Assembly (NCBI GenBank): GCA_963749495.1
Contig: CAVVMW010000021.1
Coordinates: 288,001 to 352,000, forward strand
Origin: an uncultured bacterium
GTDB taxonomy: Bacteria > Verrucomicrobiota > Verrucomicrobiia > Limisphaerales > UBA8199
DNA: 64,000 nucleotides
Reading direction: 5' to 3'
Shown here: in pieces, positions 36,001 to 39,000 of the stretch
Numbering within the stretch: the stretch's first letter is position 1
Layout: the number at the start of each line of letters is the position of its first letter
Position numbers: made by a program

Positions 36001-39000
36001 GTTGTCGGTGGCGATGACCTTGCCGAAGCTCATCTCGGGCTTGAGGCCATCGATGACCTTCTGGGCCTTGAGCAGGTCCGGTTTATCCACTGTAAACGAC
36101 AGGTCTGTGGCGCCCGGCATGCCGGAGTTGCCGTGGCTGAAGTTCTGCACGATCATGTCCACGTTGATGGCCGCATCGCCGATGGCCTTGAAGATGCGGG
36201 CGGCGATGCCCGGCTTGTCCGGCACGGCCACGAGCGTGACTTTGGCCTGGTTCTTGTCGAGCGAGACTCCCCGCACGACAATGTCCTCCATGTTCTTGGT
36301 TTCCTCTTTCACAATGGTTCCTGGGTTTTCATTGAGGCTGGAGCGTACTTCGAAGACGACTCCAAATTTTTTTGCGAACTCGACCGAACGCGACTGCATG
36401 ACCTTGGCGCCGAGGCTGGCCAATTCGAGCATCTCGTCATAAGAGATCTCGTCGAGCTTCCTGGCCTGGGGCACCAGTCGGGGGTCGGCGGTATAGACCC
36501 CGTCCACGTCGGTGTAAATCTGGCACAGGTCGGCCTTGAGGGTGGCGGCCAGCGCGATGGCCGTGAGGTCCGAACCGCCGCGTCCGAGCGTGGTGATCTG
36601 GCCCTCGAGGGTCTGGCCCTGGAACCCGGCCACGATGACCACTTTGCCCTGGCCCAGCAGTTCGTGGATTTTCCTGGGGGTGATGTTCTGAATCTTGGCC
36701 TTAGTGTGGACGCCGTCGGTCACGATGCCCGCCTGCGCCCCCGTGAGCGACACGGCCGGAATGTCCAGCGCGTGCAGGGCGATCGCCGTCAAGGCAATTG
36801 TCGTTTGCTCCCCCGTGGCCAGCAGCACGTCCATCTCCCGCTCGTTGGGCAGGGGCATGATCTCCTTGGCCAGCTTGATCAAATTGTCCGTCACGCCGCT
36901 CATGGCCGAAACGACCACGACAACCTTCTCGCCTTTGGTGTAATACCGGGCCACGCGCGAGGCCACGTTGCGGATGCGGTCCGGATTGGCCACCGACGTG
37001 CCGCCATACTTTTGTACAATCAATGCCATAACCGGCTTAGATTATGCGCAAGTGCGGCCACTTGACACGCCTTTTCTGCTCAACTGAAGTCCTCCACCCG
37101 GATGCGGACCGGGGGCGCCTTGACCACCGCCAGCCTGCCGATCTGGCCCAGGGCCCGTTCCACCGCCCCGTTGGGCGCATCGTGCAGCATCAGGATGAGC
37201 GGCACCCCCTGGCCGGGATGGCCCTCGGGCTGTATCACCGACGAAATGCCGATCCGCGCGGCGCCAAAGATTTTGGCTATCTTTGCCAGCGTGCCCGGCA
37301 CGTCCAGGACGTTGAGCCGCACGAAGCAGCGCGACACCACCTCCGCGATCGGCGCCACCGCCCCGTCCCGCTCATGCGGCACAAACGGGGGCAGGCGGTG
37401 CTTGGTGCCGAACTTGAGGTCCAGCGCCGCGTCCGCCAGATCGCTCAGCACCGCGCTGGCCGTGGCGTCCTTGCCCGCGCCCCGCCCGTAGAAGAGCGTG
37501 TCCCCAACAATGTCCCCGCGCACAAAGACCGCGTTAAAGACGTCGTTGACGCTGGCCAGGACGTGGCTGTTGGGCACGAGCGTCGGATAGACCGACACCT
37601 GGATGCGCGCCCCGCCGCGCCCCTCCGCCCTCCGTCCTCCGTCTTCCGTCCTCCGCCCTCCGTCTTCCGTCCTCCGCCCTCCGTCCTCTGCCCTCCGCCC
37701 TCCGCCCTCCGTCCTCCGTCCTCCGCCCTCCGTCCTCCGCCCTCCGCCCTCCGTCCTCCGCCCTCCGCCCTCCGTCCTCCGCCCTCCGTCTTCCGCCTTG
37801 ATGATCCCCAGCAGCTTGATCGTGTAGCCCAGTTGCGCGGCAAACCGGATGTCCATCTGCGTGATGGACCGGATGCCTTCCACATAGATGTCCTTGGGGT
37901 TGACCCAAAACCCATGGGCCAGCGAGGCCAGAATGCCGATCTTGTGGAGGGCGTCATGGCCGTCCACGTCCAGCGACGGCTCCGCCTCGGCGTAGCCGTG
38001 GGCCTGGGCGTCCTTGAGGACGGCGTCAAAATCCGCCCCCTCGTGTTTCATGCGAGTGAGGATGTAATTGCAGGTCCCGTTGACGATGCCATAGAGTTGG
38101 GTGATGCGATTGCCGACGAACCCCTCGCGCAGCGACTTGATGATCGGGATGCCGCCGCACACGCTCGCTTCGTAGTAAAGGTTGGTTCCATACTGCCGGG
38201 CGGCGGCGAAGAGTTCCTCGCCGTGCGCCGAGAGCAGCGCCTTGTTGGCCGTGATGACCGGCTTGCCCAGCTTGAGCGCCGCCAGGATGATGGACCGGGC
38301 CAGCGTGAGGCCTCCCACCAGTTCGGTGACGACGTCCACCTGCGGGTCGTTGACCACACCCTGCCAATCGGTCGTCAGCCACCGCGCCGCAATCTCGTAG
38401 GGCCGCGGCTCGTCCAAGGCCTTGACTGCCACTTTGCGCACGTTGACCCTCACACCGATGCGCGAGGCCATCAGATCGCCGTTGACCTGCAGGGCGTGAA
38501 ACACGCCGCTGCCCACCGTGCCGCCCCCAATCATGCCCAAATTCACTTGCTGCATAATAAGTCGCCCAGCTTGCCGCGATCCGAGGCCCGGGACAATGCA
38601 TTTTTGCGGCCCCGCGCAAGGCCGCAGTGCAGGTGGGAACGTCACTGGGGCAGACCCCTCACCCCGGCCCTCTCCCCTTCGGAAGGGGAGAGGGAGAGTT
38701 CTCCGTAGCGCTTTGAGGAAGCGAAGGCGCCGGAAAGCTCCCGAGACTGCCAACGCCTCTCCCTCTCCCCGTCGGACGGGGAGAGGGTTGGGGTGAGGGG
38801 TCCGCCCGGCACTCCGTCTCCGGCTTCACTGATCGATTACGTCCGCGCCGCTATTCTTCTTGACCGGCGACACAGGGGCTTTCATTTTCGGCAAGTGTTG
38901 AGAAAGATAGTATTGGTTTGGGTGCTGGCGGCGTGGCTGGTTCCGGCGCCGGGTGCGGAACCGGAGCGGTCGGTGGTGCAGATCATGACGTTTGCGCAGC

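What a model noticed while it worked through the whole genome (the two positions that open the first line are those of the whole stretch)
37080..38555. Genome-wide heptanucleotide repeat arrays that form inverted-array hairpins and expand in frame inside housekeeping gene [...]
This genome carries about 1,000 short tandem arrays of 7-nt units (chiefly GAATGAC, then AAAGGCT, AAACGTG, ACAGTCC, ACTCCGC, AGGGGCG), 17-60 times more than arrays of period 5, 6, 8 or 9. Many come as an array, a 20-370-bp core and the same array inverted, i.e. hairpin-forming elements whose arms are heptamer runs. About 190 arrays lie wholly inside called genes, 145 of them in genes with Pfam domains (dnaE, hom, der, thiC, purD, hypF, lnt, the PolY-DnaE2 gene), where three units (21 nt) are read through as 7-residue peptide repeats. 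In homoserine dehydrogenase g07691 a loop holds nine copies of (E/D)GGGRRT that relatives lack.
Evidence so far: Exact-period scan of all contigs: period 7 = 1,038 runs of 3 or more units against 42, 58, 16, 29 for periods 5, 6, 8, 9; merged to 964 arrays: 591 intergenic, 182 at gene edges, 191 inside genes (coding share of the genome 85%, so they are depleted from genes). Same-unit inverted neighbours: GAATGAC 68, AAAGGCT 13, ACAGTCC 8, AAACGTG 7. Insert peptides printed for 8 conserved genes; g07691 is 491 aa against 433-434 in Swiss-Prot orthologues aligned end to end. In 12 of 12 relatives the hom match breaks at residues about 269-312; an alignment of 8 of them shows the repeat only in this genome, with one GGRRTEG unit in a same-genus genome. 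(GAATGAC)x4 occurs 593 times here, in 17 of 200 other [...]
(Added by a program. Inside this text positions count along the whole contig: contig position 288,001 is position 1 of the stretch shown here. "Call 12" and the like, gene names such as g00115 and contig names such as C1 are that model's own, and its searches are not shown. The text may have been shortened before it was handed on; [...] marks where a part breaks off. The agent that wrote the report below was given it as the finding of a first reader that could run no searches.)

Follow-up and report, generated by a model that had tools for sequence, protein, structure and literature searches.

The report
Heptamer repeat arrays tied to IVP genes
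A soil or freshwater Verrucomicrobiota genome carries about a thousand 7-base tandem repeat arrays, one of them translated as a floppy 56-residue loop inside homoserine dehydrogenase, and the arrays turn out to be the arms of small hairpin elements built around a gene for an Avd-like four-helix-bundle protein, which gives an old repeat puzzle a testable protein partner.

Summary
The hom gene holds 24 in-frame heptamers (168 nt) at a beta-hairpin tip that AlphaFold2 models as disordered.

Three points change the reading.
- **Relatives do not lack it.** In 18 of 50 long hom loops (17 relatives plus this genome) the DNA has strong period-7 structure, with other units and sometimes inverted arrays.
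- **It is not generic slippage.** The excess sits in about 15-20 recurring units, and inverted pairs have a fixed polarity (114 of 119).
- **Arrays bracket PF05635 genes.** These encode the 23S-rRNA-IVS protein, which is Avd-like. Two of these gene lineages keep their own unit, GAATGAC or AAAGGCT, across genera; 19 of 20 examined loci have flanking heptamers.

Best reading: these are STRR-like heptamer repeats that form the arms of IVP-gene hairpin elements. ORF-less copies disperse by an unknown route, then grow and shrink by slippage. Inside genes only stop-free, in-frame copies in tolerant loops survive.

The repeat kind is published (cyanobacteria, Xanthomonas, Beggiatoaceae). This scan noted heptamer arrays in 130 or more other genomes, and noted the IVP link in two earlier reports. 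I tested that link here.

The parts
37080..38555 (-). hom, homoserine dehydrogenase, 491 aa. It carries the in-frame array.
   Evidence: Pfam finds PF03447 and PF00742. The protein aligns to PDB 3mtj_A in two pieces, 1-258 and 317-490. The AlphaFold2 model has mean pLDDT 83.3 and pTM 0.81.
37626..37793 (-). 24 heptamer units (GAGGGCG, GAGGACG, GAAGACG), 168 nt or 56 codons. They are translated as (E/D)GGGRR(T/A) x8 over residues 255-310. TRF places the array at 37621-37797.
   Evidence: Autocorrelation is 0.857 at 7 nt and 0.896 at 21 nt. Residues 258-313 have pLDDT below 50 and lie between strands 244-254 and 317-328. As mRNA the array has no fold of its own (z = +2.4).
25196..25272 (.). An ORF-less hairpin element: (AATGACG)x5.3, a 12-nt core, then (CATTCGT)x4.1.
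   Evidence: TRF found both arrays. The RNA fold is -53.7 kcal/mol with z = -8.4 on the plus strand, and -54.4 with z = -6.75 on the minus strand.
40347..40382 (+). (AGTGCGG)x5.1, directly after the stop codon of the upstream protease-like gene.
   Evidence: TRF found it. Same-genus genome G003 has five units at the orthologous place; G001 has none.
40402..40434 (+). (GAATGAC)x4.7, part of a segment of about 150 nt that G003 lacks at the orthologous site.
   Evidence: TRF; alignment.
13588..13711 (+). (GGACTGT)x17.7 in the spacer just upstream of a DnaJ-like gene that starts at 13716.
   Evidence: TRF; ORFs.
13389..13410 (+). (AAAGGCT)x3.1.
   Evidence: TRF.
20037..20094 (+). (CATTCGT)x4.7 followed by (TCCGCCC)x2.7, two abutting arrays of different units.
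   Evidence: TRF. Genome-wide, 200 array pairs lie within 50 nt of each other against 27 expected.
5857..5877 (+). (GGTGAGC)x3.0.
   Evidence: TRF.
56319..56341 (+). (TTTCAAG)x3.3.
   Evidence: TRF.

Best explanation
**What the hom feature is.** It is one member of a genome-wide population of STRR-like heptanucleotide arrays in a Limisphaerales (Verrucomicrobiota) genome.

**What the arrays are.** They are the cis arms of small hairpin elements. The complete form reads (X)n - [gene for a PF05635 '23S rRNA intervening-sequence protein', an Avd-like four-helix bundle] - (X)m - loop - (X')k, where X' is the reverse complement of X. Each IVP gene lineage keeps its own 7-nt unit.

**Proposed steps, with their status.**
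- Step 1, inferred, route unknown: ORF-less copies (array - short core - inverted array, and lone arrays) spread to new sites, including next to older arrays.
- Step 2, shown by sequence patterns: arrays then grow, shrink and change units by replication slippage and local template switching.
- Step 3, shown: selection filters what survives inside genes. Survivors are stop-free on the coding strand, have a total length that is a multiple of 3, and sit in loops or linkers that tolerate disorder.

**How this applies to hom.** A seed already present in the genus (GGRRTEG in G002) expanded to 24 units at the tip of a beta-hairpin.

**Function.** The arrays themselves are most likely selfish or neutral DNA, not regulators.
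For: **The excess is real and period-7 specific**.

**It is not generic slippage.**
- Singleton units are not enriched at period 7.
- GAATGAC forms 409 arrays here, but the x4 pattern is absent from the 3 same-genus genomes.

**Hairpin architecture.**
- Polarity is fixed: 114 of 119 same-unit inverted pairs have the A-rich arm at the 5' end.
- Arrays have a preferred start phase.
- Arrays cluster: 200 pairs lie within 50 nt against 27 expected, with a maximum of 45 in 200 simulations.

**IVP link within genomes.**
- In G000, 4 of 8 PF05635 genes have heptamer arrays within 400 nt, and 3 of 8 have them on both sides as inverted arms. Random 310-nt windows give 4.5% and 0.18%.
- In G003 the counts are 6 of 8 and 3 of 8 against 1.9%.
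- The G000 loci read (GAATGAC)17-loop-(GTCATTC)4-IVP-(GTCATTC)5 and (AAAGGCT)4-hairpin-(AGCCTTT)2-IVP-(AGCCTTT)3.5.

**IVP link across relatives.**
- Homologues of the GAATGAC-linked IVP: 12 of 13 loci have period-7 arrays within 450 nt and almost none of periods 5, 6, 8 or 9. The GAATGAC unit is kept in G013 (75% identity), G038 (63%) and G014 (58%).
- Homologues of the AAAGGCT-linked IVP: 6 of 6 examined loci are flanked by heptamers. In 5 the unit is AAAGGCT or one substitution away on at least one arm.
- In G013, 2 of the 3 (GAATGAC)x4 sites lie within 700 nt of this gene.

**Gains in this lineage.** At 5 of 7 orthologous spacers G003 has no array.

**Slippage and in situ seeding.**
- The hom unit pattern is ABC BBC BBC..., with higher autocorrelation at 21 nt than at 7 nt.
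- The G002 hom loop holds about 2.7 proto-units.
- The empty UvrC site in G003 already holds AATCCAC CGTCC where G000 has 5 x AGTCCAC.
- The two arm lengths of a hairpin are not correlated (rho = -0.19, n = 113).

**Selection filter inside genes.**
- 113 of 115 in-gene arrays are stop-free on the coding strand.
- GAATGAC occurs in genes only in its stop-free orientation (15 of 15).
- The hom insert is modelled as disordered at a hairpin tip.
Against: **Weak points of the IVP link.**
- It is weak in other genomes: G043 1 of 12, G042 1 of 7, G041 5 of 13.
- IVP gene number does not scale with array density: 8, 9, 15 and 8 hits against 91, 17.5, 30 and 2.5 runs per Mb in G000, G003, G043 and G042.
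- In this 88%-complete genome I found an IVP-linked copy for AATGACG, AAAGGCT, AGGCCGG/ACGGAGG and AATAGCC only. I found none for AAACGTG, ACAGTCC, ACTCCGC, AGGGGCG or ACCCTCG.
- My random-window control is lenient. Spacers carry about 0.10-0.14 arrays each, so a random gene has an array in one flank roughly 20% of the time (my estimate). The any-flank count in G000 is therefore only marginal. The both-flank, same-unit counts and the cross-genome counts carry the argument.
- IVP cassettes could simply home into existing array hairpins rather than generate them.

**Weak points of dispersal.**
- Cores of ORF-less hairpins are diverse and show no visible likeness to IVP gene ends.
- No target-site duplication was seen at gain sites.

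**Evidence favouring plain slippage.** G043 shows 11 distinct units in 12 period-7 runs, which looks more like a general period-7 bias.

**Untested.** No expression or population data could be obtained.
Confidence: 0.55

Rival explanations
1. Pure replication slippage with an intrinsic period-7 preference of the replisome. This is the polymerase-footprint idea credited to the 2007 SSR survey, as quoted in PMC4692102. No dispersal and no protein partner are involved. Arrays arise wherever a proto-repeat exists.
For: - In situ seeds are visible at hom and UvrC.
- G043 has 11 different units in 12 period-7 runs, with periods 6, 8 and 9 at zero.
- Heptamer excess is reported in many bacteria (passages of PMC4692102).
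- MutS is present in all 5 genomes tested, so mismatch-repair loss is not needed as an explanation.
Against: - Singleton units are no commoner at period 7 than at periods 5, 6 or 9.
- 409 arrays share one unit whose x4 pattern is not found in the three congeners.
- Polarity is 114 of 119.
- The same unit sits beside orthologous IVP genes in different genera and families.
- Whole 130-300-nt mosaic segments are gained relative to G003.
Confidence: 0.2
2. Ordinary MITE- or REP-type elements. The arms happen to be heptamer runs, and the elements are moved in trans by a DDE or a Y1 (RAYT / IS200-like) transposase. The IVP genes are passengers or bystanders.
For: - Arm polarity is fixed.
- There is a lineage-specific burst.
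- A subfamily of roughly 10-20 copies shares a 26-nt core and flanks.
- The genome holds 24 Y1_Tnp matches.
Against: - Most cores are unrelated.
- 240 of 409 GAATGAC arrays are lone.
- No target duplication was seen at 5 gain sites.
- No Y1_Tnp gene lies within 400 nt of an array.
- Y1_Tnp counts do not follow heptamer density.
Confidence: 0.12
3. Functional cis elements: bidirectional terminators, binding sites for a regulator, or translation control, as proposed for TAACTGA repeats in Beggiatoaceae.
For: - The A-rich arm at 5' and the T-rich arm at 3' is the layout of a bidirectional terminator.
- Some arrays start right after stop codons.
- The hairpins are very stable.
Against: - Arrays show no preference for convergent, divergent or tandem spacers: 0.21, 0.20 and 0.25 arrays per kb.
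- They show no orientation bias relative to genes: 82 against 102 for GAATGAC.
- They are no closer to gene ends than to gene starts: 240 of 451.
- No T-run follows the 3' arm in the examples read.
- Arrays occur inside housekeeping ORFs.
Confidence: 0.08
4. Assembly or binning artefact.
For: The genome is a bin with 5.8% contamination and 88% completeness (table).
Against: - Arrays occur at orthologous places in independent assemblies.
- They keep reading frames in 17 Pfam-verified genes.
- They are spread over the long contigs (listing).
Confidence: 0.01

Closest known systems
Long heptanucleotide simple-sequence repeats. These include the cyanobacterial STRR class (Calothrix, Nostoc), GGGAATC arrays of Xanthomonas and GGGGA(T/C)T arrays of Nostoc (Rehm et al. 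2015, PMC4692102; I read passages).
   Same: - Tandem 7-nt units.
- The excess is specific to period 7.
- Arrays are mainly intergenic.
- A few unit sequences dominate a genome.
- Some arrays come as inverted pairs able to form stem-loops.
- Length and sequence vary between close relatives.
   Different: - The phylum is different (Verrucomicrobiota).
- The units are different and not G-quadruplex-forming.
- At least 7 abundant unit families coexist.
- Density is about 91 exact runs per Mb.
- Arm polarity is fixed.
- Arrays are translated inside core enzymes.
- Arrays flank PF05635 genes, which I did not see mentioned in the passages I read.
TAACTGA heptamer direct repeats of marine Beggiatoaceae, cyanobacteria and Bacteroidetes (MacGregor 2015, PMC4679880; I read the abstract and section 15).
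   Same: - One heptamer recurs at more than 100 loci.
- Its distribution across distant lineages is patchy and suggests transfer.
- Inside ORFs only the stop-free orientation is read (LSVISYQ there; VIRHSSF here).
   Different: - There the repeats lie just upstream of start codons and a translational role is proposed. Here I found no positional bias.
- There the in-ORF cases are mostly hypothetical proteins or protein ends. Here they sit inside catalytic domains of hom, RecG, UvrC, Der and UbiE.
ORF-bearing intervening sequences of 23S rRNA and the PF05635 / Avd family. Avd is the pentameric, positively charged accessory protein of diversity-generating retroelements (passages of PMC10053308 and bioRxiv 10.1101/2023.10.23.563531).
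   Same: - A small four-helix-bundle gene is enclosed by long inverted repeats that can form a stem.
- Pfam family membership is met.
- The nearest solved relative, 2rld, was deposited with five chains.
   Different: - The copies read in full lie beside ORFs of other genes rather than in a 23S rRNA gene; the other copies and the rRNA genes were not checked.
- Their stems are made of tandem heptamers.
- No reverse transcriptase was looked for beside them.
- That rRNA intervening sequences carry such ORFs is partly my recollection, beyond the one sentence in PMC10053308.
Earlier reports of this scan on other genomes: e1-3107635 (Anaerolineae), e1-2526246 (Patescibacteria), e1-2316986 and e1-4003357 (paired heptamer arrays around IVP genes).
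   Same: - In-frame heptamer arrays in enzyme loops.
- Arrays at the same spots in related species, with units changing.
- Mirror-image arrays bracketing the IVP gene.
   Different: - Here the link is counted against controls.
- Two IVP lineages are followed across genera, each with its unit kept.
- One genome shows a 409-array burst of a single unit.

Membership tests
Long heptanucleotide SSR / STRR-type repeats | Tandem head-to-tail 7-nt units, 3 or more copies, at many loci | tested here: met
   There are 1,038 exact runs and 977 merged arrays. TRF finds them in the window.
Long heptanucleotide SSR / STRR-type repeats | The excess is specific to period 7 relative to neighbouring periods | tested here: met
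   Counts are 1,038 against 42, 58, 16 and 29. The same holds in G003 (7 against 1, 3, 0, 1) and G043 (12 against 3, 0, 0, 0), but not in G042 (1 against 2, 0, 0, 0).
Long heptanucleotide SSR / STRR-type repeats | Mainly intergenic and dispersed | tested here: met
   704 of 977 arrays are intergenic although 73% of the genome is called coding.
MITE | Terminal inverted repeats | tested here: met
   There are 119 same-unit inverted pairs within 400 nt, with polarity 114 to 5.
MITE | Target-site duplication at insertion sites | tested here: not met
   None was seen at the 5 G000-versus-G003 gain sites aligned. The sample is small and the alignments are noisy.
MITE | A conserved internal sequence shared by family members | tested here: not met
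   Cores of 45 listed GAATGAC hairpins are mostly unrelated. Only one subfamily shares a 26-nt core.
REP / RAYT (REPIN) system | A Y1 (HUH) transposase gene flanked by the repeats it moves | tested here: not met
   There are 24 PF01797 matches in G000. The nearest array is 412 nt away and most are kilobases away.
IVS-type element with an IVP ORF | An ORF of Pfam family PF05635 | tested here: met
   C21:42431-42784 scores 66.7 bits and C6:611070-611552 scores 35.3 bits, against a cut-off of 33.8. G000 has 8 genomic matches, 6 of them above the cut-off.
IVS-type element with an IVP ORF | The ORF is enclosed by inverted repeats able to form a long stem | tested here: met
   3 of 8 in G000, 3 of 8 in G003 and 1 of 13 in G041 have inverted heptamer arms on both sides. 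Sequences were read.
IVS-type element with an IVP ORF | Sits in helix 25 or 45 of a 23S rRNA gene and is cut out by RNase III | not tested
   I did not examine the rRNA genes, and RNA processing cannot be tested with these tools.
Diversity-generating retroelement | An Avd-like gene together with a reverse transcriptase and a template/variable repeat pair | not tested
   Only the Avd-like family membership was tested. No search was made for a neighbouring RT or for TR/VR repeats.
Phase-variable contingency locus | An SSR whose unit is not a multiple of 3 lies inside an ORF, so one-unit changes shift the frame | tested here: met
   24 units of 7 nt lie in hom. All three frames of the array are open.
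Phase-variable contingency locus | Length polymorphism within populations | not testable with these tools
Against high instability, G000 and G003 both keep 5 units at one orthologous array.

The most novel reading that the evidence does not exclude
**Proposed system.** The PF05635 (Avd-like, probably pentameric) protein recognises its own heptamer array, one unit per protomer. Typical arrays are 4-5.6 units long: the quartiles are 28, 33 and 39 nt.

**Proposed mechanism.** Together with host enzymes, such as RNase III acting on the arm stem and a reverse transcriptase or repair polymerase, the protein propagates ORF-less copies of its arms.

**What this would mean.** STRR-type heptamer repeats in cyanobacteria, Bacteroidota, Verrucomicrobiota and other phyla would then be the footprint of one widespread, undescribed class of protein-guided selfish element. 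That class can also write new disordered loops into essential enzymes.
Probability: 0.3. Interest if true: 0.9.

Novelty: new variant of a known kind. Interest (0 to 1): 0.72.

Why it matters
Heptamer repeats have been noted in bacteria for decades, and the papers I read offer no accepted mechanism or function. This report adds three things.

- **A partner for the repeats.** It gives a countable, cross-genus association between specific heptamer units and specific lineages of a small Avd-like gene. That turns 'why 7, and why these units?' into binding and mobility experiments.
- **A persistent site inside a core enzyme.** One loop of homoserine dehydrogenase has been occupied by different heptamer arrays across a whole order, including hairpin-forming inverted arrays read through by the ribosome. 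This is a natural experiment on how selfish repeats create, and later lose, disordered protein loops.
- **A practical warning.** Such arrays break short-read assemblies and inflate or split gene calls. Examples are the PolY-DnaE2 ORF with 7 arrays, and an array that encodes a signal-peptide N-terminus in G003.

Tried and rejected
- **Sequencing runs.** Population variation, expression and assembly support from reads therefore remain untested.
- **Mismatch-repair loss.** MutS_V is present in all 5 genomes tested, so I dropped this idea.
- **RAYT / IS200 link.** No Y1_Tnp gene lies next to an array.
- **Terminator or regulator role.** I found no bias by spacer type, orientation or position.
- **Replication-strand bias.** Orientation against local GC skew shows no clear bias; for lone GAATGAC arrays the four classes count 40, 38, 45 and 21.
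- **Coordinated arm growth.** Arm lengths are not positively correlated.
- **Array length modulo 3 or 21 inside genes.** This was uninformative, because array borders include chance matches.
- **Flank clustering by BLAST.** The result was confounded by neighbouring arrays.
- **Rfam.** No family matches the arrays. The only hits are Acido-Lenti-1, on a different repeat family.
- **hom tree.** The careful tree did not finish. The quick tree (SH-aLRT only, 23 of 64 inner branches open) is used only to say that long and short loops are intermixed.
- **ORFs in seven other large-core hairpins.** None has a Pfam match.
- **Literature.** Searches for heptamer repeats in Verrucomicrobia, or linked to IVP genes, found no such paper. 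The library lacks most subscription journals.

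
Full report
**1. 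What is at the coordinates**

Window 37080-38555 (minus strand) encodes a 491-aa homoserine dehydrogenase, with Pfam NAD_binding_3 at 10-129 and Homoserine_dh at 137-373. Aspartate kinase lies next to it.

TRF reports 25.3 copies of a 7-nt unit at 37621-37797. On the coding strand there are 24 whole units, 168 nt or 56 codons. They are GAGGGCG x11, GAGGACG x9, GAAGACG x3 and one variant, in the order ABC BBC BBC BCC BBD CBC ABC ACB. Autocorrelation is 0.857 at 7 nt and 0.896 at 21 nt, so part of the growth went in three-unit, frame-keeping steps.

The peptide is (E/D)GGGRR(T/A) over residues 255-310. The solved enzyme 3mtj aligns to residues 1-258 and 317-490 with nothing in between. An AlphaFold2 model built on 40 sequences has mean pLDDT 83.3 and pTM 0.81. 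It places residues 258-313 (pLDDT below 50) between strands 244-254 and 317-328. The insert is therefore a disordered loop at a beta-hairpin tip.

**2. Genome-wide check**

The window is C21:288001-352000 of an 11.37-Mb, 31-contig genome with 63% G+C.

- The leading units are AATGACG 423, AAAGGCT 110, AAACGTG 102, ACAGTCC 88, ACTCCGC 63, AGGGGCG 46 and ACCCTCG 31.
- Allowing isolated mismatches gives 977 arrays totalling 36.7 kb, with median length 33 nt, quartiles 28 and 39, and maximum 337.
- With a crude in-house gene caller (7,409 genes, 73% coding) they split into 704 intergenic, 158 at gene edges and 115 inside genes.
- Of the 115 inside genes, 113 are stop-free on the coding strand. The other two are AAAGGCT arrays that supply the stop at a gene end. 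GAATGAC occurs in genes only in its stop-free orientation (15 of 15).
- I sent 20 of the 83 array-bearing ORFs to Pfam. Seventeen have domains: dnaE, ThiC, UvrA, CstA, Der, two histidine kinases, UvrC, a lectin-domain protein, GlnE, a P-type ATPase, UbiE, AddB, HrpA, RecG (a 139-nt array in the helicase core), a glycosyltransferase fusion and a PolY-DnaE2 ORF with seven arrays.

**3. The excess is not a general period-7 effect**

Distinct units seen only once number 20 at period 7 against 13, 23 and 13 at periods 5, 6 and 9. The surplus therefore lies in some 15-20 recurring units.

Arrays also cluster. Two hundred neighbouring pairs lie within 50 nt against 27 expected if arrays fell at random in non-genic DNA, with a maximum of 45 in 200 simulations.

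Same-unit inverted neighbours within 400 nt number 119. Of these, 114 have one polarity, with the A-rich arm at the 5' end: 84 to 1 for GAATGAC, 13 to 0 for AAAGGCT, 8 to 0 for AAACGTG and 8 to 1 for ACAGTCC. This arrangement reads the same on both strands, so the bias cannot come from gene or replication direction.

- The pair at window 25196-25272 folds at -53.7 kcal/mol, z = -8.4.
- Arm lengths are not correlated (rho = -0.19, n = 113).
- Cores are mostly unrelated, and some are themselves hairpins or arrays of 9-nt units.
- I found no preference for convergent, divergent or tandem spacers, for orientation relative to genes, for distance to gene ends, or for GC-skew strand.

**4. Relatives and the hom loop**

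Record titles of hom relatives place the genome in Verrucomicrobiota, among Limisphaerales / subdivision 3 bins.

In 22 aligned relatives the loop between TIKLLGIIK and RIQVSVYPT varies from 2 to about 35 residues. Same-genus G002 has GGRRTEG there, encoded by about 2.7 period-7 proto-units. So the G000 array probably grew from a seed already present in the genus.

I extracted the loop from 67 hom loci; 50 loops are 12 aa or longer, this genome included.

- 18 of the 50 have period-7 autocorrelation of 0.5 or more.
- None of the 50 reaches 0.5 at periods 5, 6, 8 or 9.
- None of 1,000 length-matched windows from the rest of hom reaches it.
- The DNA shows (CGAGGGT)x4 in three genomes.
- It shows (TKACGAT)x4 + about 20 nt + (AAATCGN)x4 in nine genomes. 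These are complementary arms inside the ORF, folding with z down to -4.3.
- It shows (CAATCGG)x4 and (AGAAGTC)x3 elsewhere.
- The long form equals the 7-aa form (KLxGGCR) plus 63 nt.
- On a quick, weakly supported tree the long and short forms are intermixed.

The loops holding arrays in RecG, Der, UbiE, ThiC and UvrC are likewise variable and low-complexity in relatives, sometimes with period-7 structure of other units.

UvrC is the clearest case. G003 has an empty site (RESTV|LPDL). G000 has 60 extra residues made of 5 x AGTCCAC, 10 x AGGCCGG, a 17-nt core and 7 x CCTCCGA. The empty site already holds AATCCAC CGTCC.

**5. Distribution**

- (GAATGAC)x4 occurs 593 times here. It is absent from the three same-genus genomes and present in 2 of 40 relatives (G013, G038) and 4 of 400 genomes of the phylum. 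The reversed control pattern gives none in those genomes, and 3 hits in two other genomes of the relatives set.
- A 400-kb sample of G003 has 7 period-7 runs against 1, 3, 0 and 1 for periods 5, 6, 8 and 9.
- A 400-kb sample of G043 has 12 against 3, 0, 0 and 0, with 11 different units.
- A 400-kb sample of G042 has 1 against 2, 0, 0 and 0.
- G003 carries about 40 AGTGCGG arrays.
- At the spacer after window 40346, G000 and G003 both have five AGTGCGG units. In G003 these encode the N-terminus of the next gene's signal peptide. G001 has none, and the GAATGAC array with about 150 nt around it is peculiar to G000.
- Only 8 of the 977 arrays, at 6 sites, could be mapped onto the G003 sample. At five sites G003 has no array and is 5 to about 290 nt shorter. 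At one site G003 has (GAAGGAT)x4 where G000 has (GAATGAC)5 plus about 28 GGAGGRC units.

**6. The IVP lead**

Two earlier reports of this scan linked mirror-image heptamer arrays to genes of Pfam family PF05635, so I tested the link here. PF05635 matches number 8, 9, 15, 8 and 15 in G000, G003, G043, G042 and G041.

Period-7 arrays within 400 nt of the gene:

| Genome | Any flank | Both flanks |
|---|---|---|
| G000 | 4 of 8 | 3 of 8 |
| G003 | 6 of 8 regions (covering all 9 hits) | 3 of 8 |
| G041 | 5 of 13 (2 hits not fetched) | 1 of 13 |
| G042 | 1 of 7 (1 not fetched) | 0 |
| G043 | 1 of 12 regions (14 of 15 hits) | 0 |

Arrays of periods 5, 6, 8 and 9 in these regions were almost nil.

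Random 310-nt windows have an array in a flank 4.5%, 1.9%, 2.9% and 0.3% of the time in G000, G003, G043 and G042. The binomial P values are 2.5e-4, 1.4e-9, 0.29 and 0.019.

This control is lenient. Spacers carry about 0.10-0.14 arrays each, so I estimate that a random gene has a flanking array about 20% of the time. The any-flank result in G000 is then marginal. The both-flank, same-unit, inverted cases are not.

The G000 loci read as follows:
- (GAATGAC)17 - 27 nt - (GTCATTC)4 - IVP - (GTCATTC)5.
- (AAAGGCT)4 - hairpin - (AGCCTTT)2 - IVP - (AGCCTTT)3.5.
- (AGGCCGG)4 - IVP - (CCTCCGT)3+3.

The last unit is the hom unit GAGGACG in another register.

**7. The unit travels with the gene**

I followed homologues of the GAATGAC-linked IVP at the 12 loci returned plus one, out of 58 matches. 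Twelve of these 13 loci (G000 included) have period-7 arrays within 450 nt.

- GAATGAC is the unit in G013 (75% identity, same architecture), G038 (63%) and G014 (58%).
- GAAATCC or a close variant is the unit in G038b, G001, G022 and G006.
- Other units occur at 56-40% identity.
- G028 has none.
- G001's protein is closest to G005's (76%), whose unit differs from G001's by one base. The tracking is therefore gradual, not strict.

In G013, two of its three (GAATGAC)x4 sites lie within 700 nt of this gene.

For the AAAGGCT-linked IVP I examined six of nine returned loci, at 84-72% identity and in six genera. All six are flanked by heptamers. In G023, G012 and G016 the unit is AAAGGCT. In G022 it is AAAGGCT on one arm and AAGGATA on the other. 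In G027 it is AAGGCTG, with the same three-array architecture. In G021 it is AAAGTAT / GGATAAA.

A profile of these proteins finds PDB 2rld, deposited with five chains. Papers describe PF05635 as Avd-like, and Avd as a pentameric, positively charged barrel that binds RNA and is needed by the DGR reverse transcriptase (passages).

**8. Reading**

*Shown.*
- The arrays are real and period-7 specific.
- They are organised in unit families with fixed-polarity hairpins.
- They are tolerated in frame in disordered loops.
- They persist at the same protein sites across an order while the unit turns over.
- They are physically linked to IVP genes, with the unit kept along the gene lineage.

*Inferred.*
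- The IVP-bearing form is the source of the ORF-less hairpins and lone arrays.
- These disperse by an unknown route.
- Slippage and local template switching then remodel them.

*Not shown.*
- Any binding, mobility, expression or population variation.

*Against a simple story.*
- The link is weak in G043 and G042.
- There are few IVP genes for nearly a thousand arrays.
- Five abundant units have no IVP-linked copy found.
- Cores are diverse.
- No target duplications were seen.
- IVP cassettes may simply home into array hairpins.

**9. Known or new**

Heptamer excess, inverted heptamer pairs and in-ORF heptamers are in print for other phyla (PMC4692102 passages; PMC4679880 abstract and section 15). 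The polymerase-footprint idea for period 7 is quoted there.

My searches found no paper on heptamer arrays in Verrucomicrobia or on a link with PF05635 genes. The library omits most subscription journals, and I saw no supplements.

This scan had already noted heptamer arrays in at least 130 other genomes, and the IVP link in two reports. I rate this a new variant of a known kind, with a testable candidate partner.

Noticed in passing
window 26102-26291 and 33883-34072: Four Rfam Acido-Lenti-1 (RF01687) matches lie as two inverted pairs. The adjoining stretch, about 26067-26200, belongs to a 90-130-bp foldback family with dozens of copies in G002 and G003.
   Followed up: partly
window 11196-11311 and 57304-57372: Inverted tandem arrays of a 12-nt unit (GCGACAAAGGTT and its complement). 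Here the T-rich arm comes first, the opposite polarity to the heptamer hairpins.
   Followed up: no
window 54180-54239 and 58694-58764: Paired arrays of 9-nt units. Similar 9-mer arrays form the cores of some GAATGAC hairpins elsewhere, for example C6:416677-416840.
   Followed up: no
window 47554-47792: A 108-nt tandem repeat with 2.2 copies and 91% matches.
   Followed up: no
window 38640-38800: Two GGGGAGAGGG-type hairpins, inside a larger inverted repeat, lie just upstream of hom. This is another dispersed palindromic repeat.
   Followed up: no
L066 (G003:C35, about 20265-20272), orthologous to window 40347: In G003 the five AGTGCGG units directly follow an ATGA stop/start overlap. They encode MKCGVRSAKCGVR, the charged N-terminus of the next gene's signal peptide.
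   Followed up: partly
G000 C21:57552-62423 (outside the window): A single 1,623-aa ORF joins a Y-family polymerase (IMS) to DnaE2 and contains seven heptamer arrays. Stop-free arrays between the two parts may have fused two genes, or may only make them look fused.
   Followed up: no
G000, whole genome: Array lengths centre on 4-5.6 units (quartiles 28, 33 and 39 nt) instead of piling up at the 3-unit minimum. The nearest solved IVP relative has five chains. This may be coincidence or a hint of one unit per protomer.
   Followed up: no
L029 (G003:C33:218427-219652): The hom gene of G003 matches in four pieces in different frames. It is either frameshifted or carries assembly errors.
   Followed up: no
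G000 C14:371814-372100 against G003: A 288-nt G000-only segment has (GAAATCC)3, a perfect hairpin, then GGAATCCGAAATCC in the same orientation. It looks like a hairpin element sitting inside a heptamer array.
   Followed up: no
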